A DNA stretch of 35,832 nucleotides from Escherichia phage vB_EcoM_APEC: the sequence record MT664721. One strand, 5' to 3'. Under the pieces are notes generated by a model. It saw only the letters and a list, made by a program, of their open reading frames with translations. It was not told where the DNA came from and did no database searches. Below, in pieces: positions 8,281-35,828 of this stretch (the stretch's first letter is position 1; each line of letters begins with the position of its first letter). The translations under genes were made by a program, and so were the position numbers.

Positions 8281-8673
8281 ATGAAAGACATAGATATTTA
8301 TGACCTCGACCTGTCCGATTCAGATATTGATGAACTGGAACGGCGCAGAGAGTTAAGGATTAAAAAACGCATTAATGAACGACATGCTTTGCAGACTGCT
8401 TTAATGTGCGATGACCTGATTGACGAGTCAATGAAAATGGCAAACAGGGGATTAAAAGCAGTTGACCCTGAATCTAAAAACGAGTTCTTTGGATTGAGCA
8501 ATAAAGTTGCCACGCTTGCAGTAAAGATGCAGCAAATCCACTTGATGAAAGTCGGCTTGCTTCCTCCTGTTTCAGCGACAAAGGACACTCAGGAGAGCTA
8601 CGAGGCCAAAGTCATTAAAGAGTATGAAGAACGAGCACAGCGGCGCAAAGAACAAGTCACAAGAGTATCTTAA
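8281..8673 (+). CDS. putative terminase small subunit, 130 aa
   Basis: GGAGG at 8272-8276; sits immediately upstream of and overlapping the terminase large subunit; no motif recognised, positional call. Confidence 0.4.
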   Translation: MKDIDIYDLDLSDSDIDELERRRELRIKKRINERHALQTALMCDDLIDESMKMANRGLKAVDPESKNEFFGLSNKVATLAVKMQQIHLMKVGLLPPVSATKDTQESYEAKVIKEYEERAQRRKEQVTRVS

Positions 8674-10346
8674 TGAAGATTAGTTTCTCTGCTTTTTTTC
8701 TGATGTATGTTGAAGGTCGATTGGGGCTAGAAGCTCCCGACTTTCATTTAGATGCTTGTGACTTCCTGCAAGATTTTGCAATGGGTGGAGAGAATGACCC
8801 CGATGTGGCTGTACTAATGTTTCCGCGCGGCCACTCTAAATCTACCAATCTTGATATATTCAATGCTTGGCTAATTTATGAAGACCCTGAACATTGGATA
8901 TTACATCAGGGGACGGCAGACCGTGACGCTTACAAGTGTAGTCGCGGTACATTGGCCGTACTTAAAACCCATCCTCTAACTGAAAACAACGAGCTATTCA
9001 AGAAGCGAGAAGGAACTACATCTAAATGGTGGGTAAATGGCTCAACAGATGAGCGTTACGGTACGTTCTTTGCTGCTGGTATCTTATCCGGTGTGACTGG
9101 ACAACGTGCAACATTCATCGAAAATGATGACGTTGAAACACCAAAAACCACAAATAATCAAGAGAAGCGAGAGAAGCTTAAAACCACACTAGGCGAGCAA
9201 ACGCATATTGCTGTGCCGAACACCAAAACTTTATTTATTGGCACACCACACAGTCATGATTCACTGTATACGCACTTAATTGAAAAAGGTGCTAAGACGC
9301 TGATTCTAAAGATGTTTGAGAAGGAATATAGGATTGAAAAAGGACAGACTAAAGCGGTCATCCCTTTTGCACCAGTACATGCTTTTGCTGGAATCGGAAA
9401 AGGTGCTAAGTATCTCTATCCTGATAAAGATTATTCTGTTCATGAGATTGATGGTTTTTACCATATAGAAATCTTTGGCGAGCATAACCTTGTTGATTTC
9501 TACTCAAAAAGTATTTGGGAAAAGCGGTTTACTCCGAAGGAAATGGAGAAGCGCCGTGTTAAGTGCGAAACAATTAATGAGTGGGATTCACAGTATCAGA
9601 TGCACGCCCGACCTGTAGGCAATATGCGTCTTGACCCTGATTACCTGAAGCCATATTTAGAAGAGCCCCGACTTGTCACAGCCAATGGAGAAACACGGCT
9701 GTATATCGGTGAGAATAGAATTGTTTCCGTATCGGCCCACCTAGACCCATCATCAGGCAAGAAGAACCGCGATGTGTCAAGCTTTACCATTCTTTTCCAA
9801 GATGATATAGGTCGCTTATATTGGCATCGTTCTGTTGGTCTAACAGGAAAGATTATTAACGTTGATGAGGAAGGTAATATCTGTACAGGTGGTCAAGCGT
9901 GGACTGTCGCCGATTTGGTCAAAGAGTTTAACCTTCCTGCCGTGACGGTAGAAACAAACGGTATTGGGGGCCACGTTCCTGATAACCTTCTTGCAGTATT
10001 TAAAAAACGCAAGATTCGCTGCGCCGTTCAGGGCATACATGAAAGCAAGAACAAGAACATTCGTATCTTAGGGGCTATAGAAGGACCTTTATTGTCTGGC
10101 TATCTATATGCACATGAAAGCATTCTGAAAGATGAGAACGGCAACGATTCGGATATTGTTAAAAAAATGCGTGTATTTAACCCTGAAACACAAGATAATC
10201 CTGATGATGAGATTGATTCACTTGCGAAGGCAATCAGTAATGAGCCTGTTCGCATGGGCCGTAATCTTGAACATTTTAGCGATACCAGACCAGACTGGCG
10301 CGGTATCCAGACCAACACCAAAGCCAAGTCAGCACACAGATATTAA
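8673..10346 (+). CDS. terminase large subunit (T7 gp19-like DNA maturase B)
   Basis: N-terminal ATPase region LMFPRGHSKST resembles T7 gp19 FRGIGKS Walker A region; 557 aa. Confidence 0.85.
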   Translation: MKISFSAFFLMYVEGRLGLEAPDFHLDACDFLQDFAMGGENDPDVAVLMFPRGHSKSTNLDIFNAWLIYEDPEHWILHQGTADRDAYKCSRGTLAVLKTHPLTENNELFKKREGTTSKWWVNGSTDERYGTFFAAGILSGVTGQRATFIENDDVETPKTTNNQEKREKLKTTLGEQTHIAVPNTKTLFIGTPHSHDSLYTHLIEKGAKTLILKMFEKEYRIEKGQTKAVIPFAPVHAFAGIGKGAKYLYPDKDYSVHEIDGFYHIEIFGEHNLVDFYSKSIWEKRFTPKEMEKRRVKCETINEWDSQYQMHARPVGNMRLDPDYLKPYLEEPRLVTANGETRLYIGENRIVSVSAHLDPSSGKKNRDVSSFTILFQDDIGRLYWHRSVGLTGKIINVDEEGNICTGGQAWTVADLVKEFNLPAVTVETNGIGGHVPDNLLAVFKKRKIRCAVQGIHESKNKNIRILGAIEGPLLSGYLYAHESILKDENGNDSDIVKKMRVFNPETQDNPDDEIDSLAKAISNEPVRMGRNLEHFSDTRPDWRGIQTNTKAKSAHRY

Positions 10347-10357
10347 GGGGATTTTTA

Positions 10358-12787
10358 ATGTCAGTACCAAATCAGATACCTGAAAGTAATTATGTAGGTA
10401 ACGGCACGACAACAACATTTGCTGCTAATTTTGAATATGCAAGTGATTCAGATGTGTTTGTTACTGTAAATGGAGTTGCACCAGAAATCGGACAGGCCGT
10501 CTTTGCTAATGGTGTATTTACTTTTATTACAGCCCCAGCAAACGGTACAGCAGTTCGCGTATATCGCAGCACACCAATTGAACGAGACACGGAATACGAT
10601 AACCACGACAATGTATTTCGTCCAAGAGTGGTTAATATTGACTTTGATCGTGTCTGGTTTGTGCTTCAAGAGTACCTATTATCGCTGGGCATTACCAACG
10701 CTAGGATTACACAGGAAATAGCAGACCGCATTCAAGCCGATGCAGAAATGATGAACTACATTCTGAATGAGGATAATGAACTAAAGGCCGACTATATCCT
10801 TCGTGATGAAAACCTTAAAACGGATTATATATACAGGGATGAGAACCTGAAAAAATATGTTGATCAAACATTGGGCGCTCTACTTAATCTTCCAGACTTT
10901 CAGGGAATTGAGGCACAATTTGTTAAAGATGTAAGCGGAAAGAACCAGCAAGAGATTAATAACGCTCTTGCTGGTGTTGGTGAAAAAGTCAAAAGAGAGT
11001 TTGTTTCAGTGTGGGATTTCTTTACAACCTCTGAGTATGCAACGTACAAAGCATCCCCAACAGCATTTGACGCAAGCAGACCCGTTCAAGAATTTTTCAA
11101 TTATATTGTTGCAAACGATACTCGTGTTGCCTACTGTTCAGGTGATTTTGTAACAAGTCAAGACCTTTTGCTTGGTTCTGGCTCAGCAAAAACAAAGCTG
11201 TTGTTCGGGAATGCTTCATTCAAAGCACTTAATGCTATTGATACGGTACTCAATATTAATGCCGGCTCTGATTTTGAGTGGGTTGGAATGATTACAACAA
11301 CAGGAACAGGAAGCACTGGGTCTAATTCTTATAATTCCCGAACTTGTCGAGTTGGCGTGCAAATAAGCTCACCTGGCAAAGCCTCACCACGGAACAAGTA
11401 CACAGCAATCACAGCAAACAATTTCAAAGAATTTGGGGTTTTTGCTAATGGCGTTGCTTCTCTTTCTTCCCTTGGATTCATCAGATCAAGTAATTGCGGT
11501 TCTGGCAAAAAAACAGCAGGCTACAGCCTTACTTCAAATTTCTCTAATGCAACAAATAGCGGCAGTTCTGGCTCAGTAAGTCAATTAACAACACTTGATG
11601 TTGATACTCTACCATCATCAGATTTAGCATCAGCTAACACAAACACACTACCCCTGCAAGCTATTATCAACGGCACGCCGTACTACATTCAGTCTATAGA
11701 TCGAGTTAATAACAAGATCACCATATTCCCGTGGATTGAGCCATCAATAACATCGGGAACCTTAACTTACATGTTCGGGGGTGCTGTTTGTGTTAATGGC
11801 AGGGATTCCTCTGTACTCGGAATTGAAATGATTGATGCGGTTAACTGCGGTGCTGCTTTAGTCTCCGGTGCATTATACCCCCCTGTTGTTGAGCGTATTG
11901 TTTCTCAAGTAAACGGTGCTGCGTTAGTGTTAGGTCAAAACCCTGCCTCTGCAATGATCGGTGGTTCTGTTGGTACTCTATATTGTGAAAACAATGACTT
12001 TGATTTAATTCGTGTTACTCGTTCAAAATTAAGTTTCAACATTCTTAACACTGTTGCATTTAACATGAACAAAGTCGGCTTTGCTTGTGCGACACGCTCA
12101 ACATCCGGCTCATACAGTGCTTTTGCGCATTTAAAAGGAATTAATATTTTTGAAAACGGTGTTCCTGTTCAATACCAGAGAAGCTCTGCTAGTCTTCCCT
12201 CACAAGCAACATGTGATGTGACCGACCCAAACAATAGTGATTTTATTTTCAATGGTGGTGCAACGGCTTCAACAATTACTTTAGGCACTCCAAACGATAA
12301 CTATGCAAACCTATTTGGTATTTATAAAAAGCGCGTTATTGTCTACGGAACAGGTCCGAACAACAGGCCTTCAACTGTAAACTTCACCGTTGCTGACACT
12401 GCAAACTACACGATCAATGCAGCAGGTACAACAACCACATCATATAGCGGATTTGATGGTTTTGCTGTATTCGATATTATTTATCGAAGTGACACAAAAC
12501 GCTTTTTAATATCACAAGTCAGCAATCGAGATAGGGCGGCGTCTGTAACATATAATCCGCCATCACTAACAGCATCAGGCACAGCAGGGGATTTTGTTTC
12601 AACGACAGTGAACTTAACTGGTGCAACTGTTGGAACGCCAGTTCACGCCGCTTTCACTCAATACAATGCTGATATTGAAATTAGTGCGCAAGTAAGTGCA
12701 GAAAATACTGTCACAGTTAAGTTCAAAAATACTTCTGCTGCTGCTGTTGATTTATCAAGTGGAACACTAACAGTAAAACTAATTTAA
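10358..12787 (+). CDS. tail fiber / tailspike protein, possible depolymerase
   Basis: N-terminus resembles the T7 gp17-type virion-attachment domain; Gly/Ser/Thr/Asn-rich C-terminal part typical of beta-helical tailspikes; followed by an intrinsic terminator. Confidence 0.8.
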   Translation: MSVPNQIPESNYVGNGTTTTFAANFEYASDSDVFVTVNGVAPEIGQAVFANGVFTFITAPANGTAVRVYRSTPIERDTEYDNHDNVFRPRVVNIDFDRVWFVLQEYLLSLGITNARITQEIADRIQADAEMMNYILNEDNELKADYILRDENLKTDYIYRDENLKKYVDQTLGALLNLPDFQGIEAQFVKDVSGKNQQEINNALAGVGEKVKREFVSVWDFFTTSEYATYKASPTAFDASRPVQEFFNYIVANDTRVAYCSGDFVTSQDLLLGSGSAKTKLLFGNASFKALNAIDTVLNINAGSDFEWVGMITTTGTGSTGSNSYNSRTCRVGVQISSPGKASPRNKYTAITANNFKEFGVFANGVASLSSLGFIRSSNCGSGKKTAGYSLTSNFSNATNSGSSGSVSQLTTLDVDTLPSSDLASANTNTLPLQAIINGTPYYIQSIDRVNNKITIFPWIEPSITSGTLTYMFGGAVCVNGRDSSVLGIEMIDAVNCGAALVSGALYPPVVERIVSQVNGAALVLGQNPASAMIGGSVGTLYCENNDFDLIRVTRSKLSFNILNTVAFNMNKVGFACATRSTSGSYSAFAHLKGINIFENGVPVQYQRSSASLPSQATCDVTDPNNSDFIFNGGATASTITLGTPNDNYANLFGIYKKRVIVYGTGPNNRPSTVNFTVADTANYTINAAGTTTTSYSGFDGFAVFDIIYRSDTKRFLISQVSNRDRAASVTYNPPSLTASGTAGDFVSTTVNLTGATVGTPVHAAFTQYNADIEISAQVSAENTVTVKFKNTSAAAVDLSSGTLTVKLI

Positions 12788-12867: not shown

Positions 12868-13206
12868 ATGGAAGATTTTGCAAAAGCTGTAGCGGATTAC
12901 TTCCGAAGCAATATAGGCTTGCTATCTGGCGTAGTGATAGGAATGCTTATTTATATTCTGACTGCGAAAAAAAAGACATGGCGAGAGAGGATTGTTAATG
13001 CTTCAGGTGGTGGCCTGCTGGCAATAGTTTTTGCTCCACACATTGCTACATTCTTTGACAAGCCGAATTACGCTGTGCCTATTGCGGTTCTTATTGTGTA
13101 TTTCAACGAGTGGTTACCAGAACTTATACAAACCTTTGCACCGAAATACATTAAAGTCCTCATTAAGCGTTTTACCGGAGTTGACCTAGATGACTCAAAT
13201 AAGTAA
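12868..13206 (+). CDS. holin-like membrane protein, 112 aa
   Basis: Two to three predicted hydrophobic helices; directly upstream of the endolysin. Confidence 0.5.
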   Translation: MEDFAKAVADYFRSNIGLLSGVVIGMLIYILTAKKKTWRERIVNASGGGLLAIVFAPHIATFFDKPNYAVPIAVLIVYFNEWLPELIQTFAPKYIKVLIKRFTGVDLDDSNK

Positions 13207-13474
13207 CTTCACATGGGGAGTGTTGCTAGAGAATCTAGCACTCTTTATTGTATTCCTGTGTATTGCAAGCGTGGTTATACAGCACATGCGAAAGCAAATT
13301 GTATTGGGCGTATTCTGGCATATATCTTTTGTTATTGGTCTAGTGATTACTTTTACACTAATACTTGACCCATATCCTAGAATATTTGATGAAGCACAAA
13401 CAGCATATAAGTTATTTATTGCTGTAATTGCCGTTGGACTCTGCAATAAAATAAGCAAAGAAGGTGGGTTCTAA
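13190..13474 (+). CDS. membrane protein, 94 aa (second holin / antiholin candidate)
   Basis: Multiple hydrophobic segments; overlaps previous gene; precedes the endolysin. Confidence 0.45.
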   Translation: MTQISNFTWGVLLENLALFIVFLCIASVVIQHMRKQIVLGVFWHISFVIGLVITFTLILDPYPRIFDEAQTAYKLFIAVIAVGLCNKISKEGGF

Positions 13475-13475
13475 T

Positions 13476-14084
13476 ATGATCATGACAGAGAAAGGCTTTG
13501 CTGTTTTAAGGTCACATTTTGGTAGCTTGAAGCAATCGCAAGTTGACGGAATTAATACCATTGTTGAGCAGTTCAATGCTCAGGGTGTGACCAACTACAA
13601 CCATGCAGCCTACATGCTCGCTACAACTTGGCATGAAACTGCAAAAACCATGCAGCCAATTGAAGAATATGGAAAGGGTAAAGGCCGTCCTTATGGAACA
13701 TGGTACAAGAACAGCAAGGGTCTGCTTTACAGCTTTATAAACGGATTTAAAAAGGTTGCCTATCTGTTCAATGACCATCCCCATCTCTATTATGGTCGTG
13801 GCTACGTGCAACTTACATGGTTTGAAAACTACCAGAGAGCATCCAAGAAACTCGGCGTAGACTTTATAAATAATCCAGGGCTTGCACTAGACCCTAAACC
13901 TGCTGCTGATATTATGATTGTCGGAATGCGTGAAGGTTGGTTTACCGGAAAGAAACTGGATGATTACATTTCAGGAAATAAAAAAGATTACGTGGGCGCA
14001 AGGAAGATTATCAACGGACTAGATAAAGCTAAACTCATTGCTGATTACTCTGCAATATTTGAAAAGGCTTTGCGCCAGCCATAA
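13476..14084 (+). CDS. endolysin, glycoside hydrolase family 19 (chitinase-like) type
   Basis: Motifs HETAK...YYGRGYVQLTW resemble GH19 catalytic region; ATG at 13476 with AAGGTGGG upstream (track starts at GTG 13464). Confidence 0.75.
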   Translation: MIMTEKGFAVLRSHFGSLKQSQVDGINTIVEQFNAQGVTNYNHAAYMLATTWHETAKTMQPIEEYGKGKGRPYGTWYKNSKGLLYSFINGFKKVAYLFNDHPHLYYGRGYVQLTWFENYQRASKKLGVDFINNPGLALDPKPAADIMIVGMREGWFTGKKLDDYISGNKKDYVGARKIINGLDKAKLIADYSAIFEKALRQP

Positions 14085-14087: not shown

Positions 14088-14107
14088 AAGCCCCATTATA
14101 GGGGCTT
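14088..14107 (-). terminator. intrinsic terminator between convergent transcription units (U-tract on minus strand)
   Basis: Hairpin AAGCCCC-ATTATA-GGGGCTT; the T-run follows only in the minus orientation; overlaps the last codons of the minus-strand gene 14096..14293. Confidence 0.55.
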
Positions 14108-14293
14108 GATATACATAGACTGGGTTATTTTGCCCATACATGATCTTGACCATTCTCCAAAACAATAGCCATAGAGAACACCATCAACATATTTGTAATA
14201 TAAGAACCCTCTTTCATTATCTATTCCAGCTCTCTCTGGTCTGTAATGCGTAGCGCCGTTAGGTGCATTTTCCTTTATTTCTTGCTCTGTCAT
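14096..14293 (-). CDS. hypothetical protein, 65 aa (paralog of 20887..21078)
   Basis: Shares MT.EEI...AP.GATHY N-terminus and IKPL C-terminus with the plus-strand 63 aa protein; terminal gene of the minus-strand operon. Confidence 0.5.
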   Translation of the reverse strand: MTEQEIKENAPNGATHYRPERAGIDNERGFLYYKYVDGVLYGYCFGEWSRSCMGKITQSMYIKPL

Positions 14294-14463
14294 TTTACTT
14301 CCTCACTTAACTTCTGTATCCCAAACTCATCATGAAACATCTGATACGATAATACCGCCTTCCATTGCTGACAGCTATCCAGCCATATATACCACTCATT
14401 CTCTGCAACTTTCATCCAATAATCCAGTCCATCCCAATGAGTAGCGCCTAGAGGTTTAGTCAT
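14290..14463 (-). CDS. hypothetical protein, 57 aa
   Basis: ATG (rc of 14461-14463) with GAGGTGA upstream, 2 nt after the stop of the upstream gene; the track's longer version overlaps the neighbour out of frame. Confidence 0.4.
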   Translation of the reverse strand: MTKPLGATHWDGLDYWMKVAENEWYIWLDSCQQWKAVLSYQMFHDEFGIQKLSEEVK

Positions 14464-14839
14464 GCTCACCTCGCAGGGCTTTATGTTCATGATCACCAAA
14501 GTATTCTTTATTTTCGTATCTATTGTTATTGCAGTTAAAACAATGCAATAGACTAAAACCTTCACGGTCACTAACAATTCCCTGCCAAGGTTCACCACAT
14601 GAACAAGTTCCGTGAATCATGGCTGACATAGATTGGCTCTTCCAGGCTTTAAGCTGAGCATTTAAATCATTAATTACTTTCTGCTGCTCTTGGAATGCGT
14701 ACCATGCGCCGTTTATCCAGCAAACAAGCTTTTGAAAGTTGATTAAGTCCGAGTGATACAAATTGTCATCACCAAAATAAATATGCTGGCTAAGACTATT
14801 TGCAATCTCAGGCAACTTCTCAAACTGTTCTCTCATCAC
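14456..14839 (-). CDS. hypothetical Cys-rich protein, 127 aa
   Basis: CSCGEPW...HCFNCN pattern suggests metal binding; tightly coupled in the minus-strand operon. Confidence 0.5.
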   Translation of the reverse strand: MMREQFEKLPEIANSLSQHIYFGDDNLYHSDLINFQKLVCWINGAWYAFQEQQKVINDLNAQLKAWKSQSMSAMIHGTCSCGEPWQGIVSDREGFSLLHCFNCNNNRYENKEYFGDHEHKALRGEHD

Positions 14840-15189
14840 CCTTCCTCCACGTCAAGTATGGCTTGTTTTACTCTTGCGGTGTTTATATACCCTATGCCAC
14901 AGTCCAGCTTGACCAGTAGGTCCGCATGTCCTGCATACTCACAAGCTGCAACATCAGCCTTGGCCTGATCTAAAGATTTGAATAGCCCGAGAATCTCATG
15001 ACTTTCGACAAGTCGCTTTAGGTCGCAAAGACTGACAAATGGGCAATTTTCGGTTGGAGCAATCGCTATAAATGTATATTCCATCATATCGGGCAGATAG
15101 ACATCGGTTTCTGGATAATCACACCAGCAATCAACAATAAGCTTTGCGGTTTTATATCCTTTCTTCTTCACAAACTCAGTCGCTTTCAT
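14836..15189 (-). CDS. hypothetical protein, 117 aa
   Basis: Coupled ORF in the minus-strand operon; no motif recognised. Confidence 0.5.
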   Translation of the reverse strand: MKATEFVKKKGYKTAKLIVDCWCDYPETDVYLPDMMEYTFIAIAPTENCPFVSLCDLKRLVESHEILGLFKSLDQAKADVAACEYAGHADLLVKLDCGIGYINTARVKQAILDVEEG

Positions 15190-29013: not shown

Positions 29014-29037
29014 AAGCCCCTTAATTGGGGTTTTTTA
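29014..29037 (+). terminator. rho-independent terminator inside the non-coding region
   Basis: GCCCC-TTAATT-GGGGT stem followed by TTTTTT. Confidence 0.55.
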
Positions 29038-29090
29038 TTGCCTGTTCATAAGTATTGGTTATGGGTTAATATATCTTATATAAATAATTT

Positions 29091-29099
29091 TGATATAAT
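29091..29099 (+). promoter_or_regulatory. extended -10 promoter (TGaTATAAT) upstream of the structural module
   Basis: TG at 29091-29092, one base, then TATAAT at 29094-29099; AT-rich upstream; GGAG at 29141-29144 and ATG at 29153 downstream. Confidence 0.45.
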
Positions 29100-29152
29100 C
29101 GCGCGCGTGAGATAATGTTATTATCAGGTTTGTTTATATAGGAGTGTCGAAA

Positions 29153-29383
29153 ATGACCGAGAAGAAAGAAACCACAGAAAACGTTCAGGAAAAGGCAACT
29201 GAAGCAACAGTATCTCAAAAGGAATTTGACAAGGTGAAGGCTGAGAATGCCGAGCTTCGTAAAAAGAACGTGGCCTTGCACAATGAGAACCAACGCCTGA
29301 AAGACAGTGTTGCACCTCAGAAGCCTAAAGGTGATTTCGTTTTTGACGAGAAGAAGGGCTATACATTCAAGGAGCGTAAGTAA
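29153..29383 (+). CDS. hypothetical charged/coiled-coil protein, 76 aa
   Basis: ATG at 29153 with GGAG RBS; first gene of the structural operon. Confidence 0.5.
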   Translation: MTEKKETTENVQEKATEATVSQKEFDKVKAENAELRKKNVALHNENQRLKDSVAPQKPKGDFVFDEKKGYTFKERK

Positions 29384-29574
29384 TGAGCGTACGTCCTAAA
29401 GTTGTTCAACAAAAGTCCGCTGAACAGATTGAGAAAGAGGCGAAGGACTTGGCCACGCTTGAAGCGAATAAGGAAGCTGCACAGCGGCGTGGTGGTCGTT
29501 CGACTGCACTCAGTCCAATTGGTCAGGGCACAATGAATGGTCTTAAAACTTTACTAGGTGGTGGCGGACAATGA
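29383..29574 (+). CDS. hypothetical protein, 63 aa
   Basis: Coupled ORF immediately upstream of the portal gene. Confidence 0.45.
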   Translation: MSVRPKVVQQKSAEQIEKEAKDLATLEANKEAAQRRGGRSTALSPIGQGTMNGLKTLLGGGGQ

Positions 29575-31187
29575 GCGAACTGGCAACGAGTAAGATTAAA
29601 ATGTTGGGCAATCTGAAAGTTGCCCGCTCCAAACATGAGCCAAAATGGATTGACTGTTATAAATATGGTGCTCCTGAGCGTGAGCCTGATTTTACTGATG
29701 TAAGTAGTGATGATCAGAAAAGTCGTGTGAATCTTTATGACGGTACTGCTGCTGATAGTGTCCAGTTGCTTGCGAGTTCTATTATATCAGGAACCGTGCC
29801 TCCTAACGTTCGTTGGTTTAAGGCTGTACCTAGTGGTCTTGAAGATGATGAAATGACAGAGGCAGATCAGTGGCTTGATGATGTATGCGAAATGATGTGG
29901 CGCAAGATTCATGCTGGCAATTTCAACGTAGAAGCGTATGACTGCATCCAAGACTATGTTGTGGGTGGCTGGGGTGTTCTGTATATCACACAGGAAGGTG
30001 ACGGTTATCGCTTTGAGAACTGGCCGTTAGGTAATTGCTGGTTTTCAACAACTAAGCAAGGTGGTCTGGTTGACATTATCTATCATGTTGTTTCCATGTC
30101 TGCAAAACAGATGGTAGAAGAATATGGTGAGAATGAGGTTCATGAGTCAGTTAGACGCGCTGCGAAGGATGATGTAGAGCGAAACTACACTGTTCTTCAT
30201 GTAATTGAACCGCGCAAAGATGGCAGTGAGAATGCAGACTTACCAGAGAAAATGCCGTTTGCTTCATACCATATTGATATTGATAACAAGCATCTGCTTA
30301 AAGAGGGTGGTTATCGTAGTTTTCCTTGCGCTGTGCCACGTGCTCACAAGATTGCCAATTCAGTCTATGCGGTTGGGCAGATGTTTAAGGCTTTACCAGA
30401 TGCCAAGTCGTTAAATGAAATGCAACGCATGTTGTTAAACAGCATGGATGTAAATGTAAATGGCTTTTGGGCTGCTGCTGATGACGGTGTAATCAATCCT
30501 GCAACGTTCCGTATTGGACCAATGGAAATGGTCATGGTTCGCAGCATGGAGCAACGTCCACAGAACCTGATGCCAAATACAAACGTAAACTTGGCTGACT
30601 GGATGGTCTCTGGTAAACAGCAAGCAATCCGCAAGGTGTTAATGTCTGATCAGCTACAGGCGCAGGATGGGCCACAAATGACAGCAACCGAGGTTTATGT
30701 TCGTGTAGACCTGATTCGTCAGTTGTTAGGCCCAATGTTCGGACGTTTGCAAGATGAATTCATGATGCAGATATTAGACCGATGCTTCTCTATTGGTTAC
30801 TCTGCTGGATGGTTTGGTGAAGCGCCAGAAGAATTGCTTGGTGAAGAACTGAAGTTTAGATTCGAGAATCCATTTGCACGTTCACAGCGTTTAGAGGAAG
30901 TTACAGCGATTGAGCGCTTGATGGGTAGTGTTGGATTAATGGCTGAAGCATTCCCTGAAGTTCTGGATAACATCAATGCAGATGCAGCATATAACGTTTT
31001 ACAGGCTGGTTATGGAGTTCCTGCATCAGTAAGCAGAACAGCAGATCAGGTGATTAAATTACGTGAGCAGCAGCAGCAGCAGAAACAGCAAATGGAACAA
31101 CAGCAAAGACAGCAAGGCGCTGAGGATGCAATGGCAGGAGCAGCTTTAGACGTAATGACACAGCAAGGGGCTAACAATGATTTATAA
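29571..31187 (+). CDS. portal (head-tail connector) protein
   Basis: 538 aa, close to T7 gp8 size; Gln-rich C-terminus; upstream of scaffold and capsid genes. Confidence 0.75.
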   Translation: MSELATSKIKMLGNLKVARSKHEPKWIDCYKYGAPEREPDFTDVSSDDQKSRVNLYDGTAADSVQLLASSIISGTVPPNVRWFKAVPSGLEDDEMTEADQWLDDVCEMMWRKIHAGNFNVEAYDCIQDYVVGGWGVLYITQEGDGYRFENWPLGNCWFSTTKQGGLVDIIYHVVSMSAKQMVEEYGENEVHESVRRAAKDDVERNYTVLHVIEPRKDGSENADLPEKMPFASYHIDIDNKHLLKEGGYRSFPCAVPRAHKIANSVYAVGQMFKALPDAKSLNEMQRMLLNSMDVNVNGFWAAADDGVINPATFRIGPMEMVMVRSMEQRPQNLMPNTNVNLADWMVSGKQQAIRKVLMSDQLQAQDGPQMTATEVYVRVDLIRQLLGPMFGRLQDEFMMQILDRCFSIGYSAGWFGEAPEELLGEELKFRFENPFARSQRLEEVTAIERLMGSVGLMAEAFPEVLDNINADAAYNVLQAGYGVPASVSRTADQVIKLREQQQQQKQQMEQQQRQQGAEDAMAGAALDVMTQQGANNDL

Positions 31188-31530
31188 AATGTTTCAGTAT
31201 TCATTAATTTTAGTTATACTTGCGCTAACAGTTATTGGCATTATCACTATCGTCTACACGGTTCGAGAGTATCGCAATCAGCGCAATGTGCTTAAATCCA
31301 CAAAAGAACTGATTCATACTTGGGCCAATCCTGATATGAGAGCAACGCCACAGGATTACCAAAGAGTGTTTGAAATTGATGCAAGCGGACGGCGTGTTCT
31401 GATGCAGTTGGTCAAGAAGTACATGCAAGAACCGTTTGATGTAGATGATAGAAAGACAGCATACAGATGCGGCGCAAGAGAACCAGTCGCATTTATTATT
31501 GAACAGATACAAAGAGGACGTAATCAATGA
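31177..31530 (+). CDS. small protein with N-terminal transmembrane helix, 117 aa
   Basis: Hydrophobic N-terminus YSLILVILALTVIGIITIVY; lies between the portal and scaffold genes. Confidence 0.45.
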   Translation: MIYKMFQYSLILVILALTVIGIITIVYTVREYRNQRNVLKSTKELIHTWANPDMRATPQDYQRVFEIDASGRRVLMQLVKKYMQEPFDVDDRKTAYRCGAREPVAFIIEQIQRGRNQ

Positions 31531-32180
31531 GTGAATCTGAAGCAGCGGTAGAGACTACAGAGCAAACCGATTCATCTGCTCAACAGGAAAGTCAGGCAAC
31601 TACTGAAACCACACAGGATGATAGTCAACAGGCTCAAGAACAGAATCAGCAGCAAGGAGGTGATTTAACTGCTGACTCATACAATATTGAGCTTGAAGGT
31701 TTTGACTTTAACGAGTTTAAAGGTCTTGAAGAAAACAAGGCATTCTTGGGCAAGGCTGCTGAACTCGGCATTACCAATGATCAGCTACAGTATTTAATTG
31801 GTGAATACAATAGCCGCGCTGCCGGATTGCTCGGTGCAAGTGCAGAGCTAGACACAGAAGCCACAATAGGTAGCCTTAAGGAAGTTTGGGGTGACAACTT
31901 TGATACCAATGTGGTTAATGCTCAAAAGGCATTACGTGCTGCTGGATTTACAGATGAAGATTTAAATAAGCCAGAGATCGGCAATAACGTTGCTTTGGCT
32001 AAACTCGCGGCGCATTTTGGCGCACAAATGAATGAAGACGCGACACCGCAAGGTGCTCCGGCTTCTAATGCAATTAATATTCAGGACTTACTAAGCAATC
32101 CTGCGTATGACGATGTTTCTCATCCTGACCACAATGATGTTGTGAAACAGGTTGAGGCATACTACTCTAAAAACCGCTGA
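31527..32180 (+). CDS. scaffolding protein
   Basis: Very acidic, Gln/Glu/Thr-rich N-terminus; between portal and capsid genes. Confidence 0.6.
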   Translation: MSESEAAVETTEQTDSSAQQESQATTETTQDDSQQAQEQNQQQGGDLTADSYNIELEGFDFNEFKGLEENKAFLGKAAELGITNDQLQYLIGEYNSRAAGLLGASAELDTEATIGSLKEVWGDNFDTNVVNAQKALRAAGFTDEDLNKPEIGNNVALAKLAAHFGAQMNEDATPQGAPASNAINIQDLLSNPAYDDVSHPDHNDVVKQVEAYYSKNR

Positions 32181-32194
32181 TCAGGAGCTAACAC

Positions 32195-33085
32195 ATGACA
32201 GCAGATACTATTAAAGCGAATTATGTGCGCGAGTTTAGTGATAAGTTTGCGCTTGACGTTCAACAAAAGCAGTCACGTTTAGAGCGTGGGGTAACCAATC
32301 ATGGTCGTATCGTTGGTGCTGACTTCACGATTAACAAGTTTGGCACTGTTGAAATGCAGGACAAGACAGTTCGATTAAAAGAAACTGATCTTACACTCAT
32401 TCCAACCTCTGCACGTATCGTGACGATGCGAGATAAGATTCTTGCAACGGCGATTGATGCGACAGATGAAACCAAGATGAAGGCCGACTTGCGTGGCCCA
32501 ATCCGTAATACATTCTTCGGTGCTGTAAACCGTACCAAAGATGACATTATCTACAATGCCTTGCTGGGTGATATTGCATCTAAAACCACTTACTCGGATT
32601 CTGGTATCGCTCAGGTATCTCTGCCGGCTTCTCAGAAGATTACGCTAACCACTGGTGTGACTTCTGGCATGTTTACCCAAATCCTTTCAATGTTTATGGG
32701 TAACGAAGTGGGCGTAGAAGATGGTGAAGAAATCTATATCACCTATAACGCTGCCATGATGAAAGCCATTCTGGACAATGAAACTCTGACCAATGCAGAC
32801 TATGCAGCAGTTAAGATGCTTTGGGAGGGTAACATTTCTGGTAAATGGTTGGGCATGAACTGGATTCCTTATAACCGTATGAAAGTCGGTTCTACTGAAG
32901 GTACTCGTGTTGGTGTGGCTTGGGCTAAGTCTGGTATTGAATACGGCTGGAACGTTCCGCAAGACTTCCGTATCGATGTTCGTCCAGACCTTGAATACGC
33001 TACTCAGTTCGGTGGTATCTACTCGTTCGGTGCTGGTCGTAATGACGAGAAGAAAGTTGTGGCGTTTGAGTTCTTGAGTGCTTAA
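32195..33085 (+). CDS. major capsid protein
   Basis: 296 aa ORF after the scaffold gene, followed by a strong intrinsic terminator; positional call. Confidence 0.65.
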   Translation: MTADTIKANYVREFSDKFALDVQQKQSRLERGVTNHGRIVGADFTINKFGTVEMQDKTVRLKETDLTLIPTSARIVTMRDKILATAIDATDETKMKADLRGPIRNTFFGAVNRTKDDIIYNALLGDIASKTTYSDSGIAQVSLPASQKITLTTGVTSGMFTQILSMFMGNEVGVEDGEEIYITYNAAMMKAILDNETLTNADYAAVKMLWEGNISGKWLGMNWIPYNRMKVGSTEGTRVGVAWAKSGIEYGWNVPQDFRIDVRPDLEYATQFGGIYSFGAGRNDEKKVVAFEFLSA

Positions 33086-33120
33086 TTGCTAACAAGCCTG
33101 AATAAAATACATTAAACTAA

Positions 33121-33146
33121 GGGTATCTTGAAGATGCCCTTTTTTA
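33121..33146 (+). terminator. rho-independent terminator after the capsid gene
   Basis: GGGTATC-TTGAA-GATGCCC (one G-U pair) followed by TTTTTT. Confidence 0.6.
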
Positions 33147-33157
33147 ATGGAGCAGAT

Positions 33158-33721
33158 ATGAATAATACAAAAGTGTCTATTGCGAATTATGCTTTGGCCT
33201 TGATTGGTTCAGAACCGATACAGGACTTTGAAAGCTCAGTCAAGAATGCAAAGTTAATCAGAAGTATGTATGACATAAAGCGACGTGCATTGCTTCGGGA
33301 CCACCCTTGGTCATTTGCCAGAAAGCGTATAAAGATTGCACCATCGGCAGAAAAGCCGGATTTCGGTTATAGCAATAAATTTGCATTGCCGCGTGATTTC
33401 ATTCGATTGCTTGACCCAAACCAGTTTGATTTCACTATTGAAGGTGCTTATGTCCTTGTCAATGCTGAAGAACTGCAACTGTCATACATCTATGATTGCG
33501 ACAATGAAGCAATATGGGATGATTCATTTGCTCTCTGCATGTCTTATGCGTTGGGCGCTGACTTGTGCAAGCCGATTACAGGCAGCGATTCCTCAAGGGA
33601 TACATTGCTAATCATGCTACGTGATGAACTGAGAGCAGCCAAGAGCATTAATGGTCAGCAGCTACCATCTGGCAAGTTTCAGAATAACTATGTTTCTCCA
33701 TACATTGCAGCGAGATACTGA
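33158..33721 (+). CDS. tail tubular protein A (gp11-like)
   Basis: ATG at 33158 with GGAG upstream; 187 aa, close to T7 gp11 size; the track's TTG start at 33128 lies inside the terminator hairpin. Confidence 0.6.
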   Translation: MNNTKVSIANYALALIGSEPIQDFESSVKNAKLIRSMYDIKRRALLRDHPWSFARKRIKIAPSAEKPDFGYSNKFALPRDFIRLLDPNQFDFTIEGAYVLVNAEELQLSYIYDCDNEAIWDDSFALCMSYALGADLCKPITGSDSSRDTLLIMLRDELRAAKSINGQQLPSGKFQNNYVSPYIAARY

Positions 33722-33722
33722 T

Positions 33723-35828
33723 ATGGCACTAAATATAATCAAGTCTAATTTCAGTTCCGGTGAGCTTGACCCGATACTCTCTACTCGCGGCGATGTGGCG
33801 CAATATCATAACGGTGCAAAAGAGCTGACCAACGTCATTGCACTGGTAGAAGGTGGAGTTAAGAAACGTGCAGGAACTCGCTATATTCGCAAAGGAACAA
33901 CATCTGACTATGTTCGGATGCTGCCATTTGCGCCTAGTGCTTCACAGCCGTTCTTTATCATCTTAGGGGTAGGTAAGGCAACCATTGTTAATGCAACCAC
34001 TCTAGCAGTCGTAACCACAGTGACCACGCCATACAACACAGTGCAACGCGTTAAAGATGTTCAGTACATTAACTCGCGTTACACCTTGTTCTTCACCCAC
34101 CCTGATTTTCCAGTTCAGCAACTTCGGACAAGTGCAGATTATGCGGATTGGAGTTGGACAAAATTAATTTTTGATATACCACCATTGGCAGAGAGTGGGC
34201 GCTCACCTAACAGTACATTGCAACCAGGTGCAAAAGAGGTTGGGGCGTCAATTCTGCTTAATTCAAGTCCATATTCCAATTGGTCAGCAACACAGCAGTA
34301 CTACATTGGAGATCGTGTTTATTACAATTCTTCCTATTGGGAAGCTGTAAGTGACAACTTGAACTCACCGCCTTCCGGTTCAAATCCAAATTGGGTGTAT
34401 GTCCCTGAAAGCCGGCCTAATATTTTTAGTCCATCTGATGTGGGTTCTATTATAAAAATTAACGGTGGTCTGGTAAGAGTCACAGAGTTTACTAATGGTT
34501 GGGCTGTGCGTGGAACTGTTCTGGTTAAGCTTAATTCTACGGTTCAGGCGCTCGGCAGATCATGGACAATTACAGGTGGCGCTTATAATGCAACTGATGG
34601 TTATCCGCGTTGCTGCACCTTCTTTAAGCAGCGACTTGTGCTGGGTGGTACTAGAAAATATCCAAACATGGTCTGGTTTAGCCGGATTGGTGACCCTCAA
34701 AACTTCCTTGAAACCACAAAGGATGCGGATGCATTTAGTGTTGCTCCTGCCTCAGATCGTTCTGATAATATCTTGCACCTAGTTCAGTCAAGAGGTGTTG
34801 TGGCTTTAACTGGCGGTTCTGAGTTTCTGATTGATTCAAATGAAGCATTGACCCCGACTACTGTACAGATTACAGAGCATACGGCGTATGGTGCTTATCC
34901 AGATGCTCGGCCTACTCGTGTTGCAAATGAATTGTTGTTTGTACAGCGTGGTGGCGAGCGATTAAGAGCATTATCCTATCGTTACGAAGTGGATGGTCTG
35001 GTCTCGCCAGACATTAGCATTCTGTCTGCACACATTACCCGAAACAATGGTGGGATTGCTGAGCTGTCCTATCAGCAAGAACCTAATAGTCTGGTATGGG
35101 TGGTTTTGGAAAACGGAAAGGTTGCAGGTGTGACATTAAACCGCGAGCAAGAGGTCATTGCTTGGGCATTGGAAGATTTTAATGCTGAGGTGCTCTCTAT
35201 TGTAAGTACACCCACATTGCTTGGTTCTGATAAAACCTTTGCACTCATCAAACGGCTAGATGGTCAGGTCTGGCTAGAACAGCTTACGCAGGATGCATTA
35301 ACTGACTGTGAAGTAGGTTATACGGTAAGCAATAACACCATTACAGCGACACATCTAAACGGATTTGCTGCATCAGGTATTGAGAATGTTCAAGCGTGGA
35401 TGATGGTTAATGGTGCTTATACTCAGGTCAAGATCAAGTCAAGATCAGGCAATGTTCTAACCCTTCAGGATGATGACTACACCGGAAAGACGGTTTATGT
35501 TGGTGCGCCAATCAAGTGTAGAATATCGCTACTGCCACCTGAATTTGCTCAATATCCCTCTTCTATGCGTACCTCAAAAATAACGATTCATTCAGTCTAT
35601 GCGACGATTTATAATACACTTGGCTTACGTGTAAATGGTGAAGATGTGGATGATATACGTTTTGATGATAATCCGCTGAACCCGCTTAAACCGTTTAGCC
35701 GTGTGGTCAATATTGGACAGTATGGGTGGACAACGGTTGAAGACTTGGACATGGTAATTGAACATGACAGACCATTGCCATTTCATTTGCAAGCAGTCAA
35801 TCTCGAATTAACGGTGAATAACAAATGA
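33723..35828 (+). CDS. tail tubular protein B (gp12-like)
   Basis: ATG at 33723, 1 nt after the gp11-like stop; about 701 aa; the track's upstream extension overlaps the previous gene. Confidence 0.65.
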   Translation: MALNIIKSNFSSGELDPILSTRGDVAQYHNGAKELTNVIALVEGGVKKRAGTRYIRKGTTSDYVRMLPFAPSASQPFFIILGVGKATIVNATTLAVVTTVTTPYNTVQRVKDVQYINSRYTLFFTHPDFPVQQLRTSADYADWSWTKLIFDIPPLAESGRSPNSTLQPGAKEVGASILLNSSPYSNWSATQQYYIGDRVYYNSSYWEAVSDNLNSPPSGSNPNWVYVPESRPNIFSPSDVGSIIKINGGLVRVTEFTNGWAVRGTVLVKLNSTVQALGRSWTITGGAYNATDGYPRCCTFFKQRLVLGGTRKYPNMVWFSRIGDPQNFLETTKDADAFSVAPASDRSDNILHLVQSRGVVALTGGSEFLIDSNEALTPTTVQITEHTAYGAYPDARPTRVANELLFVQRGGERLRALSYRYEVDGLVSPDISILSAHITRNNGGIAELSYQQEPNSLVWVVLENGKVAGVTLNREQEVIAWALEDFNAEVLSIVSTPTLLGSDKTFALIKRLDGQVWLEQLTQDALTDCEVGYTVSNNTITATHLNGFAASGIENVQAWMMVNGAYTQVKIKSRSGNVLTLQDDDYTGKTVYVGAPIKCRISLLPPEFAQYPSSMRTSKITIHSVYATIYNTLGLRVNGEDVDDIRFDDNPLNPLKPFSRVVNIGQYGWTTVEDLDMVIEHDRPLPFHLQAVNLELTVNNK

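What the first reader, a model, noticed from the sequence alone, without database searches (positions are those of the whole stretch)
8673..35828. T7-like structural module combined with lambda/P22-like replication and recombination genes, and no phage RNA or DNA polymerase
Terminase, tail fiber, portal, scaffold, capsid and tail tubular proteins follow T7-like order. No ORF is long enough for a T7-type RNAP or DNAP outside the structural proteins. Instead there is an O-like initiator with iterons, a DnaB-like helicase, an ERF plus YqaJ pair, and several sigma70-consensus promoters, implying host-RNAP-dependent transcription. The GH19-type endolysin is a flavour I associate with some Acinetobacter and Pseudomonas phages, but the host is unknown.
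Basis: partly seen in the sequence, partly recalled or inferred. Interest (0 to 1): 0.55.

Follow-up and report, generated by a model that had tools for sequence, protein, structure and literature searches.

The report
Polymerase-less epsilon15/Piluca-type Acinetobacter podophage genome
The window is the complete, circularly permuted 35.8-kb genome of an uncultured Acinetobacter short-tailed phage that joins a T7-type virion gene set to lambda/P22-type replication and recombination genes and relies on the host's RNA and DNA polymerases, a combination already known from phages such as epsilon15, Piluca and the HTVC010P pelagiphages.

Summary
Terminase, fibre, portal, scaffold, capsid, tail tube A and nozzle, an O-type initiator with four iterons, a DnaB helicase, an ERF plus YqaJ pair and a GH19 endolysin are all present. 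No RNA or DNA polymerase is detectable by HMM or six-frame searches.

Three corrections:
- **Extent.** The window is a whole circular or permuted genome. The virion module wraps the ends, so positions 1-8672 (GNAT, four internal virion proteins, small terminase) belong to it.
- **Relatives.** The virion genes are T7-like only at profile level. Their sequence relatives are Acinetobacter prophages, Alcaligenes phage Piluca, Acinetobacter phage TPWB-05, Yersinia YeP4-6 and, further off, epsilon15, BPP-1 and HTVC010P.
- **Promoters.** Sigma70-like sites are fewer than chance overall but concentrated in intergenic DNA.

The architecture is known: epsilon15 and Piluca have it, and HTVC010P-type phages are reported to lack both polymerases. 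This is a new member of a known kind.

Two things are distinctive:
- This clade has no integrase or CI in at least nine contigs of 35-37.5 kb.
- A conserved 321-aa protein upstream of the late operon carries a SutA-like RNAP-binding motif, and phage homologues pass Pfam's threshold for that domain.

The parts
1..448 (+). GNAT acetyltransferase in the IVP-A position. The gene starts at ATG 35825/35828 and wraps across the window ends (151 aa).
   Evidence: phrog_1249 1e-30 from residue 1. Pfam GNAT. Sister contigs call a 151-aa gene directly after the nozzle. The junction is contiguous in 4 contigs.
451..8089 (+). Four internal virion (ejection) proteins: 151 aa (451-906), 679 aa (910-2949), 870 aa (2946-5558; lytic transglycosylase plus ddrB-ParB domain) and 844 aa (5555-8089; epsilon15 gp17 / T7 IVP-D type).
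   Evidence: phrog_418, 992, 11561 and 684. PF18763, 93 bits. Transglycosylase hits in PDB. 25% identity to epsilon15 gp17 over the full length, 68% to Piluca. PMC4819975 equates epsilon15 gp17 with T7 IVP-D.
8281..10346 (+). Small terminase candidate (8281-8673) and large terminase (8673-10346).
   Evidence: phrog_38 1e-74. T7 terminase RNaseH-like domain at 26.2 bits, just under the cut-off. 54% identity to Piluca TerL. Same position as the annotated Piluca TerS.
10358..12787 (+). Tail fibre or spike with a T7 gp17-type N-terminal anchor and a variable C-terminal part.
   Evidence: phrog_1640 and PF03906 (weak) on residues 1-110. Only the N-terminal 13-26% is shared with relatives. Length varies from 818 to 893 aa in sister contigs.
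12868..14084 (+). Lysis cassette: holin-like 112 aa, 94-aa membrane protein, GH19 endolysin (13476-14084).
   Evidence: phrog_126 (weak), PF00182 at 31.5 bits, phrog_181 1e-38.
14088..14107 (.). Hairpin terminator between the convergent late and leftward-early operons.
14096..17028 (-). Leftward early operon: ERF annealase (16330-17028), YqaJ/lambda-Exo-type exonuclease (15719-16330) and six small ORFs.
   Evidence: PF04404 at 72.5 bits, PF09588 at 49 bits. phrog_155 and phrog_149.
17029..17101 (.). Divergent early control region with overlapping sigma70-like promoters: + strand TTGTAA-17-TATAGT at 17047-17075, and - strand TTGCAA-17-TATTAT at 17089-17061.
   Evidence: Invariant in 7 contigs while the neighbouring codons vary synonymously.
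17102..21642 (+). Rightward early genes.
- 52-aa basic protein (17102-17260)
- dCMP deaminase (17965-18351)
- MazG-like pyrophosphatase (18339-18866)
- HNH endonuclease (18844-19497)
- Terminator 19983-20006 followed by promoter 20016-20043
- Terminator 21067-21084 followed by promoter 21148-21176
- Cro/YdaS-type HTH (21207-21437)
21652..23693 (+). Replication module: O-type initiator (21652-22389) containing the origin (iterons 21956-22035, A/T-rich 22036-22095), and a DnaB-type helicase (22389-23693).
   Evidence: PF04492. phrog_678 1e-45. DnaB_C at 211 bits. Repeats. P22 gp12 hits at 7e-36. 76% nucleotide identity to A. baumannii phages.
25761..26726 (+). 321-aa candidate host-RNAP-binding regulator: N-terminal SutA-RBD-like helix, KP-rich linker, two zinc-ribbon repeats, C-terminal HTH-like end.
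   Evidence: - PF20661 at 28.2 bits against a cut-off of 29.3.
- 13/20 residues identical to SutA.
- Homologues found with the C-terminal half alone carry PF20661 in 11 of 58 cases, four above the cut-off.
- pLDDT about 90 for residues 125-255.
27079..28718 (+). Second HNH endonuclease (27145-27780), 193-aa protein, Hjc-like resolvase candidate (28341-28718).
   Evidence: phrog_953 7e-64, phrog_93, and PF01870 (weak).
28719..29152 (+). Non-coding late control region: conserved hairpins, terminator hairpin 29013-29037, extended -10 TGATATAAT at 29091-29099 with a CGCGCGCG discriminator.
   Evidence: Alignment of 5 contigs. Fold. This is the only sense-strand TGNTATAAT in the genome. No Rfam family.
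29153..35828 (+). Head and tail genes: two small ORFs, portal (29571-31187), Bbp19-like (31177-31530), scaffold (31527-32180), major capsid (32195-33085), tail tube A (33158-33721), nozzle / tube B (33723-35828).

Best explanation
The window is the complete genome (35,832 bp, circularly permuted or circularly assembled) of an uncultured Acinetobacter podovirus.

**Virion module.** It runs portal, Bbp19-like, scaffold, capsid, tube A, nozzle, GNAT, four ejection proteins, TerS, TerL, fibre, lysis. It belongs to the epsilon15/Piluca branch of the T7-type tail lineage.

**Early region.** This is an unrelated lambdoid module of P22 flavour.

**Replication (inferred from homology).** The O-type initiator binds four iterons inside its own gene, next to an A/T-rich tract. 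It recruits the phage's own DnaB-type helicase. Host primase and Pol III then do the synthesis. ERF plus the YqaJ exonuclease provide recombination.

**Transcription (inferred).** It is carried out throughout by host sigma70 RNAP:
- Divergent early promoters lie at 17029-17101.
- Internal promoter/terminator pairs subdivide the rightward early genes.
- A terminator at 29013-29037 ends the early units.
- A late promoter with a perfect extended -10 at 29091-29099 drives a late operon of about 21 kb that runs across the window ends to the terminator at 14088-14107.
- The conserved 321-aa SutA-RBD/zinc-ribbon protein is the best candidate for the factor that directs host RNAP to late genes.

**Lifestyle.** The clade has no integrase or CI-type repressor, so it is probably a virulent offshoot of a family otherwise found as Acinetobacter prophages.
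For: **Completeness.** A GNAT gene wraps the ends. The junction is contiguous in 4 contigs. Thirteen and 19 contigs carry identical capsid and ERF proteins, the longest nine of each being 35-37.5 kb, none above 50 kb.

**Gene identities.**

**No polymerases, integrase, CI, Q or N.**

**Relatives.**
- 15-17 virion and packaging proteins are shared at 29-69% identity with Piluca, TPWB-05 and MD-2021a. Seven are shared with epsilon15, five with HTVC010P, two with T7 and one with P22.
- Piluca and epsilon15 have the same gene order.
- The 844-aa ejection protein is 67-75% identical to proteins in Acinetobacter chromosomes and MAG contigs.

**Mosaicism.**
- GC is 43-47% in the virion module against 35-40% in the early region.
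- The O/DnaB segment is 76% identical, and 21064-21643 is 88% identical, to A. baumannii myophages.
- YeP5 and BPP-1 combine the same virion type with their own DNA polymerase.

**Origin.**

**Promoter placement and conservation.**

**RNAP-binding candidate.**
Against: - No experiment exists: transcription start sites, rifampicin sensitivity and lifestyle are all inferred.
- Sigma70-like matches are not enriched genome-wide. The intergenic enrichment is confounded by low intergenic GC (32.5%).
- The window's own SutA-RBD score is just under Pfam's cut-off (28.2 against 29.3).
- One distant homologue (P0003) lacks the GG motif.
- The closest virion relatives are prophages, so an unrecognised lysogeny system cannot be excluded.
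Confidence: 0.85

Rival explanations
1. Temperate phage with unrecognised lysogeny functions. A small repressor (the 52-aa early protein, the 76-aa YdaS/Cro-type HTH or the 211-aa ORF) would combine with host-recombinase-mediated integration or plasmid-like maintenance through O/DnaB.
For: All sequence-related virion modules sit in temperate phages or prophages. Small DNA-binding proteins are present.
Against: - No integrase, CI or S24 peptidase by HMM or tblastn.
- No partition genes were found.
- None of the 32 contigs read that carry identical capsid or ERF proteins exceeds 50 kb or shows bacterial flanks.
- In Piluca the integrase lies between the endolysin and the leftward operon. Here that gap is 11 bp.
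Confidence: 0.12
2. A divergent or split RNA or DNA polymerase is hidden among the hypothetical ORFs or the large ejection proteins, as in N4 or crAss-like phages.
For: Three large virion proteins (679, 870 and 844 aa) have little Pfam annotation. According to PMC4819975, the N4 virion RNAP gp50 carries an IVP-D-like C-terminal domain.
Against: - The 844-aa protein aligns end to end with phrog_684 and epsilon15 gp17, and the 870-aa protein with a transglycosylase/ParB-type family. That leaves no unaccounted stretch of polymerase size.
- PDB sequence searches give no polymerase hits.
- The largest non-virion ORFs are DnaB (434 aa) and the 321-aa protein.
- No repeated phage-specific promoter motif was found.
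Confidence: 0.03
3. The window is a fragment of a larger phage or prophage, and the polymerase and lysogeny genes lie outside it.
For: The window ends fall at gene boundaries, and no terminal repeat is present.
Against: A gene reads through the end-to-start junction. Four independent contigs are colinear across it at 94-99.9% identity. Sister contigs cluster at 35.3-37.5 kb.
Confidence: 0.02

Closest known systems
Alcaligenes phage Piluca (MZ326864) and Acinetobacter phage TPWB-05 / MD-2021a prophages
   Same: The gene order matches almost one for one: TerS, TerL, fibre, holin, endolysin; leftward exonuclease plus annealase; rightward initiator and helicase or loader, then resolvase; portal through nozzle, GNAT, ejection proteins. 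Fifteen to 17 proteins are shared at 29-69% identity. None has an RNAP or DNAP. Piluca is reported to be related to Acinetobacter prophages and to package by headful (PMC9022569).
   Different: Those phages carry an integrase, CI and Cro. Their early proteins are unrelated (Bet rather than ERF, DnaA-like or DnaC-like rather than O plus DnaB). There is no nucleotide-level similarity.
Salmonella phage epsilon15 (Uetakevirus) and the epsilon15 tail-structure homology group (PMC4819975)
   Same: A T7-type portal, tube A, tube B, GNAT (IVP-A), IVP-B and transglycosylase IVP, together with a gp17/IVP-D set, joined to a lambdoid early region with exonuclease plus annealase and no polymerases. Portal, tube A, nozzle and the 844-aa protein match at 24-25% identity over more than 80% of their length.
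   Different: In epsilon15 an Sf6-type terminase lies upstream of the portal, the capsid has no BLAST similarity, and the phage is temperate with O-antigen conversion genes. In the window a T7-type TerL lies after the ejection proteins.
HTVC010P-type pelagiphages
   Same: Podoviruses of about 35 kb with homologous portal, scaffold, capsid, tube A and nozzle (27-30% identity). They are explicitly reported to encode neither RNA nor DNA polymerase (PMC8477408).
   Different: Marine SAR11 hosts. A DnaA-domain initiator rather than O plus DnaB. A different terminase position.
Phage T7 (Autographiviridae)
   Same: The order of portal, scaffold, capsid, tube A, tube B, IVP-A to IVP-D, fibre and terminase genes. 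Pfam families PF12236, PF17212 and PF25675, with weak PF22530 and PF03906.
   Different: No RNAP, DNAP, primase-helicase, ligase or T7-type promoters. Only TerL and the helicase show weak BLAST similarity.
Phage P22 / lambda early region
   Same: An O-type initiator with iterons and an A/T-rich tract inside its gene, followed directly by a phage DnaB-type helicase as in P22 gp18/gp12. ERF lies in a leftward operon, with divergent early promoters, a resolvase before the late genes, and one long late operon.
   Different: No c2/cro/c1 immunity region, N, Q, integrase or P22-type virion genes.

Membership tests
Autographiviridae (T7-like phages) | Phage-encoded single-subunit RNA polymerase | tested here: not met
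   tblastn of T7 RNAP against the circularised genome: best E 1.7. No polymerase family in the PHROGs or Pfam scans of all ORFs.
Autographiviridae (T7-like phages) | T7-type replication set (family A DNAP, gp4 primase-helicase) | tested here: not met
   T7 DNAP best E 2.1. T7 gp4 matches only the RecA-type core of DnaB at 5e-9.
Autographiviridae (T7-like phages) | T7-type virion module and gene order | tested here: met
   PF12236, PF17212 and PF25675, and the order portal to IVPs. Similarity is at profile level only.
epsilon15 tail-structure homology group (Hardies et al., PMC4819975) | Tube B (gp12), tube A (gp11) and IVP-D (gp17) homologues, with GNAT IVP-A in syntenic position | tested here: met
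   tblastn to epsilon15: nozzle 24% over 83% of its length, tube A 24% over 89%, the 844-aa protein 25% over the full length. GNAT lies directly after the nozzle.
Genus Uetakevirus (epsilon15) | Genus-level nucleotide or proteome similarity and a temperate lifestyle | tested here: not met
   No megablast hit. Only 7 of 51 proteins are shared, at 24-34% identity. No integrase or repressor.
Piluca / TPWB-05-like podophages (unclassified) | Shared, syntenic virion and packaging module | tested here: met
   15-17 shared proteins at 29-69% identity, in the same order.
Piluca / TPWB-05-like podophages (unclassified) | Lysogeny module (tyrosine integrase, CI, Cro) | tested here: not met
   No hit with Piluca, MD-2021a, TPWB-05, YeP5, epsilon15 or P22 queries. 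None in sister contigs.
Lambdoid (lambda/P22) replication module | O-type initiator whose gene contains iterons plus an A/T-rich tract | tested here: met
   PF04492 at 35.5 bits. Four copies of TGCTGTCGGAAAATCCGACA at 21956-22035, then an A/T-rich tract at 22036-22095. Binding was not tested.
Lambdoid (lambda/P22) replication module | P22 gp12-type phage DnaB helicase adjacent to the initiator | tested here: met
   DnaB N- and C-terminal domains. P22 gp12 hits at 7e-36 with 30% identity. The start codon overlaps the O stop codon at 22389.
Lambdoid late control (Q antitermination) | Q-family antiterminator plus a PR'-qut-tR' cassette | tested here: not met
   No Q family in Pfam or PHROGs. P22 gp23 gives no hit. 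A terminator does precede the late genes, but the best promoter lies downstream of it.
SutA-RBD-containing proteins (Pfam PF20661) | Score at or above the gathering cut-off of 29.3 bits, and conservation of the RNAP beta-protrusion interface residues (L67, M71, F74, L75, G78, G79, V81 of P. aeruginosa SutA; PMC9300723) | tested here: inconclusive
   The window protein scores 28.2 bits, E 1e-6. In the SutA alignment L, F, L, G, G and V are kept and M becomes V. Four homologues found through the C-terminal domain score 29.7-42.7 bits. Binding was not tested.

The most novel reading that the evidence does not exclude
The 321-aa protein belongs to an undescribed family of phage transcription factors. 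An N-terminal SutA-type helix would dock on the beta protrusion of the host RNA polymerase. One to five zinc-ribbon repeats and an HTH would bind DNA. In this polymerase-less, lysogeny-free Acinetobacter podophage it would switch host RNAP to the late promoter (extended -10 with a GC-rich discriminator), taking the place of a Q-type antiterminator or a phage RNAP.
Probability: 0.25. Interest if true: 0.55.

Novelty: new member of a known kind. Interest (0 to 1): 0.28.

Why it matters
For phage classification, this adds an uncultured lineage at about genus level or above. It belongs to the unclassified Piluca/TPWB-05 group, which links epsilon15-type, HTVC010P-type and T7-type podoviruses. It also gives another clear case of a virion module exchanged between different replication modules: O plus DnaB here, a DnaA-like or DnaC-like protein in Piluca and TPWB-05, and the phage's own DNA polymerase in YeP5 and BPP-1.

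The practical interest is modest. A naturally lysogeny-free relative of common Acinetobacter prophages would be a more acceptable therapeutic scaffold than its temperate kin.

The more interesting lead is the side observation. Phages of several types carry a SutA-like RNAP-binding motif fused to zinc-ribbon DNA-binding repeats. If confirmed, this would be a new way for phages to commandeer host RNA polymerase.

Tried and rejected
- **Nucleotide search.** Megablast of the whole window against 50,697 phage records matched only the O/DnaB segment and two short early segments. Nothing matched 24001-35832.
- **Rfam.** The gathering threshold gave nothing for the whole window. In E-value mode the late control region gave only a sub-threshold PK-repBA hit, treated as chance.
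- **Late promoter.** My first reading was TTGACG-16-TAAATT at 28921-28948 followed by a terminator, in the manner of lambda PR'-tR'. I downgraded it because the '-35' lies in the loop of a hairpin whose loop varies between sister contigs while the stem is kept. A perfect extended -10 downstream of the terminator fits better.
- **Covariation test of the late-region hairpins.** Not possible. IMG/VR holds only one close relative, and the sister contigs are 93-99% identical.
- **Word-index protein searches.** The 321-aa protein returned 3 hits, its low-complexity linker swamping the candidate list. Its first 60 residues returned none. The exhaustive phmmer with the C-terminal half worked.
- **Structure of the 321-aa protein.** The AlphaFold model has confident zinc-ribbon repeats, but Foldseek against PDB gave no match better than E 0.3.
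- **PDB sequence searches of the three large ejection proteins.** Only transglycosylase hits.
- **Genome-wide sigma70 count as evidence.** Rejected, because matches are fewer than in shuffles.

Full report
**What the window is.** The 35,832-bp window contains about 51-55 tightly packed ORFs and no tRNA. It is a complete genome. An acetyltransferase gene starts at ATG 35825/35828, runs over the end and continues in frame from position 2. The joined 151-aa protein matches phrog_1249 from its first residue, and also matches the Pfam GNAT families. An 800-nt probe made of the last and first 400 nt aligns without a break to four independent metagenome contigs at 94-99.9% identity. Exact-sequence look-ups of the capsid and ERF proteins read 13 and 19 contigs. 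For each protein, nine blocks have a longest contig in the 20-50 kb range; those shown are 35.3-37.5 kb, and none exceeds 50 kb. IMG/VR holds one more contig, of 35,770 bp.

**Checking the observation: virion and lysis genes.**
- The portal is of the T7 gp8 type (PF12236, 342 bits). Its best solved relative is the portal chain 8ck0_A, and T7 portals match weakly.
- A Bbp19-like protein, a scaffold and a capsid (PF19821, 186 bits) follow, then tube A (PF17212) and the nozzle (PF25675; phrog_376, 6e-158).
- Across the junction come the GNAT protein and four internal virion proteins. One is an 870-aa protein with a lytic transglycosylase and a ddrB-ParB domain. Another is an 844-aa protein matching phrog_684 end to end.
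- Next are a small-terminase candidate, TerL, a fibre with a T7 gp17-like N-terminus, a holin and a GH19 endolysin at 31.5 bits against a cut-off of 25.5.

The order is T7-like, except that the terminase precedes the fibre.

**Checking the observation: early genes.**
- The leftward operon holds ERF and a YqaJ exonuclease.
- The rightward genes include a dCMP deaminase, a MazG-like protein, two HNH endonucleases and a Cro/YdaS-type HTH. They also include an O-type initiator, a DnaB-type helicase that starts on the O stop codon, and an Hjc-like resolvase candidate.
- The iterons are real. Four copies of TGCTGTCGGAAAATCCGACA lie at 21956-22035 inside the O gene and are followed by a 60-bp A/T-rich tract, the lambda ori layout.

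**No polymerases and no lysogeny genes.**
- T7 RNAP and DNAP give no hit in the six-frame translation of the circularised genome (best E 1.7 and 2.1).
- The DNA polymerases of YeP5 and BPP-1, the YeP5 primase, six integrases or recombinases, five CI-type repressors, and P22 gp23 (Q) and gp24 (N) give nothing below E 0.05.
- All predicted proteins were scanned with PHROGs and/or Pfam without any polymerase, sigma, integrase or S24 family.
- The only frames of 440 aa or more are seven virion or packaging genes. The largest others are DnaB (434 aa) and a 321-aa protein.
- The three large ejection proteins are accounted for over their length by phage structural families and by epsilon15 gp15-gp17 similarity. 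They give no polymerase hit against PDB sequences.
- No repeated phage-specific promoter motif exists.

**Relatives.** At nucleotide level only the O/DnaB segment (about 76%) and 21064-21643 (88%) match known phages, all of them A. baumannii myophages. By protein, the capsid and nozzle find these relatives at 29-45% identity:
- Acinetobacter phage TPWB-05
- Alcaligenes phage Piluca
- Acinetobacter MD-2021a prophage contigs
- Yersinia prophages YeP4-6

HTVC010P-type pelagiphages, BPP-1 and epsilon15/phiV10 follow at 24-30%.

A tblastn matrix of all 51 proteins against nine genomes gives these shared counts:

| Genome | Proteins shared |
|---|---|
| Piluca | 17 |
| TPWB-05 | 15 |
| MD-2021a | 15 |
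| YeP5 | 11 |
| epsilon15 | 7 |
| HTVC010P | 5 |
| BPP-1 | 2 |
| T7 | 2 (TerL at 25% over 30% of its length, and the helicase core) |
| P22 | 1 (DnaB) |

Almost all shared proteins are virion or packaging proteins.

A scan of one genome per prokaryotic species found the 844-aa protein at 67-75% identity only in Acinetobacter. It occurs in large chromosomal contigs (A. haemolyticus, A. brisouii, A. corruptisaponis, several ANC strains) and in MAG contigs of about 35-37 kb. The host is therefore Acinetobacter, and the virion module belongs to a common family of Acinetobacter prophages.

**Comparison with what is known.**
- Piluca's annotation is almost gene-for-gene syntenic with the window. It runs TerS, TerL, fibre, holin, endolysin, then integrase. 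Its leftward operon holds an exonuclease and an annealase, followed by CI and Cro. Then come the initiator, helicase and resolvase, and finally portal to nozzle, GNAT and epsilon15 gp15-17-like proteins.
- The Piluca authors describe tail proteins like those of T7 and epsilon15, a relation to A. baumannii prophages, and headful packaging (PMC9022569).
- epsilon15 has the same overall plan and no polymerase in its annotation.
- Hardies et al. place epsilon15, BPP-1 and others in one tail-structure homology group related to T7. They equate epsilon15 gp17 with T7 IVP-D and the GNAT protein with IVP-A. They also note that the RNAP gene could reassort independently of the tail genes (PMC4819975).
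- YeP5 and BPP-1 combine the same virion type with their own DNA polymerase. APSE combines a YeP4/BPP-1-like early region with P22-type late genes (PMC8579659).
- Within the window, GC is 43-47% in the virion module and 35-40% in the early region.

The mosaic is real, but it is a well-documented pattern.

**How it most likely works.** The gene identities and the DNA motifs are shown by the analyses here. The steps below are inferred from homology.
- **Replication.** O binds the iterons, the A/T-rich tract melts, the phage DnaB is loaded as in P22 gp18/gp12, and host DnaG and Pol III replicate. ERF and YqaJ provide recombination, and the Hjc-like nuclease resolves junctions.
- **Promoter counts.** Sigma70-like matches are fewer than in shuffles: 34 against 52.1 ± 6.0, and 12 against 27.5 ± 4.4. 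Yet 9 of 49 lie in the 4.1% of the genome that is intergenic, where 2.0 would be expected, and eight of those face a downstream gene. Low intergenic GC is a confounder.
- **Early control region.** The 73-bp divergent region 17029-17101, with overlapping promoters in both directions, is invariant in seven contigs. The first rightward gene, a 52-aa basic protein, shows synonymous changes.
- **Early units.** Terminator/promoter pairs lie at 19983-20043 and 21067-21176.
- **Late control region.** Ahead of the late operon is a 434-bp non-coding block that is almost invariant in five contigs. It holds a hairpin terminator at 29013-29037, found by folding but not listed by the consensus scan. Downstream of it lies TGATATAAT at 29091-29099, the only sense-strand perfect extended -10 in the genome. 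A CGCGCGCG discriminator follows, and the first late ATG is 54 nt further on.
- **Late operon.** It then runs about 21 kb across the window ends to the bidirectional terminator at 14088-14107.

**A candidate RNAP-directing factor.** The 321-aa ORF (25761-26726) is conserved in every sister contig.
- Its N-terminus, SDQLAREVEEFLARGGKVKS, hits Pfam SutA-RBD at 28.2 bits (cut-off 29.3). It is 13/20 identical to the P. aeruginosa SutA segment RDALAKAMEEFLSRGGKVQE.
- That segment contains the residues shown to contact the RNAP beta protrusion: L67, M71, F74, L75, G78, G79 and V81 (PMC9300723).
- A KP-rich linker follows, then two helix-plus-zinc-ribbon repeats modelled at pLDDT of about 90, then an HTH-like end.
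- An exhaustive phmmer search with the C-terminal 197 residues only found 57 cluster representatives with one to five such repeats. Eleven of 58 carry SutA-RBD at their N-terminus, four of them above the Pfam cut-off (29.7-42.7 bits).
- The four contexts examined are phage-like. One has a RusA and superinfection-immunity neighbourhood, and one is a P2-like myovirus.
- No paper in the library uses the term 'SutA-like'. Foldseek finds no solved fold.
- RNAP binding, and a role in late transcription, remain hypotheses.

**Lifestyle.** In Piluca, MD-2021a and epsilon15 the integrase follows the lysis genes. Here the endolysin stop and the end of the leftward operon are 11 bp apart. No CI lies between the divergent operons. 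Together with the contig-size evidence, the clade looks virulent. An unrecognised lysogeny mechanism remains possible, and I rate it at about 0.12.

**Verdict.** The thing itself is a new, uncultured member of a known kind of podovirus, not a new kind of mosaic. Interest is low to moderate. It rests mainly on the lysogeny-free state of the clade and on the SutA-RBD/zinc-ribbon protein family seen in passing.

Noticed in passing
window 25761-26726; homologues P0002, P0004-P0059; loci L062-L065: A family of phage proteins joins an N-terminal SutA-type RNAP-binding motif to 1-5 CxxHG...CxxC zinc-ribbon repeats and often an HTH. Eleven of 58 members hit Pfam PF20661, four above the cut-off. There is no solved fold match and no mention in the searched literature.
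   Followed up: partly
window 28719-29152: A 434-bp non-coding block before the late operon is almost invariant in five contigs. It holds small hairpins (one with a variable loop and conserved stem), a terminator hairpin at 29013-29037, and a perfect extended -10 (TGATATAAT, 29091-29099) followed by a CGCGCGCG discriminator. No Rfam family matches.
   Followed up: partly
window 2946-5558: The 870-aa ejection protein combines a lytic transglycosylase (about residues 340-520) with a ddrB-like ParB-superfamily domain (PF18763, 93 bits, residues 533-658). It may be a 'polyvalent' injected protein with a DNA- or nucleotide-directed activity.
   Followed up: no
window 14085-14095 and 17029-17101, compared with L001, L017 and L018: The whole clade (at least nine contigs of 35-37.5 kb) lacks the integrase and CI that occupy these two positions in Piluca, MD-2021a and epsilon15. 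It appears to be a lysogeny-free offshoot of an Acinetobacter prophage family.
   Followed up: partly
window 18844-19497 and 27079-27780: Two HNH endonuclease genes are absent from the corresponding positions of several sister contigs, as expected for mobile homing endonucleases. In some sisters MazG is replaced by a dUTPase.
   Followed up: no
window 14096-14293 (-) and 20887-21078 (+); 17561-17968 and 24706-24918: There are two pairs of paralogous small genes: phrog_6698, and phrog_14495/phrog_1972. The first pair sits at the ends of opposite operons, and each copy is followed by an AAGCCCC...GGGGCTT terminator hairpin.
   Followed up: no
whole window: Sigma70-like promoter matches are markedly fewer than in dinucleotide-preserving shuffles: 34 against 52 ± 6, and 12 against 27.5 ± 4.4. 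This may reflect selection against spurious host-RNAP promoters inside genes, or a codon-structure artefact of the shuffling.
   Followed up: partly
window 1-8000 and 29000-35832 against 17000-29000: GC content steps from 43-47% in the virion module to 35-40% in the early region, consistent with separate histories for the two modules.
   Followed up: no
L016 (Yersinia phage YeP5) and L019 (BPP-1): Phages with the same type of virion module carry their own family A DNA polymerase and primase together with an integrase and repressor. The virion module has therefore been combined with at least three different replication strategies.
   Followed up: partly
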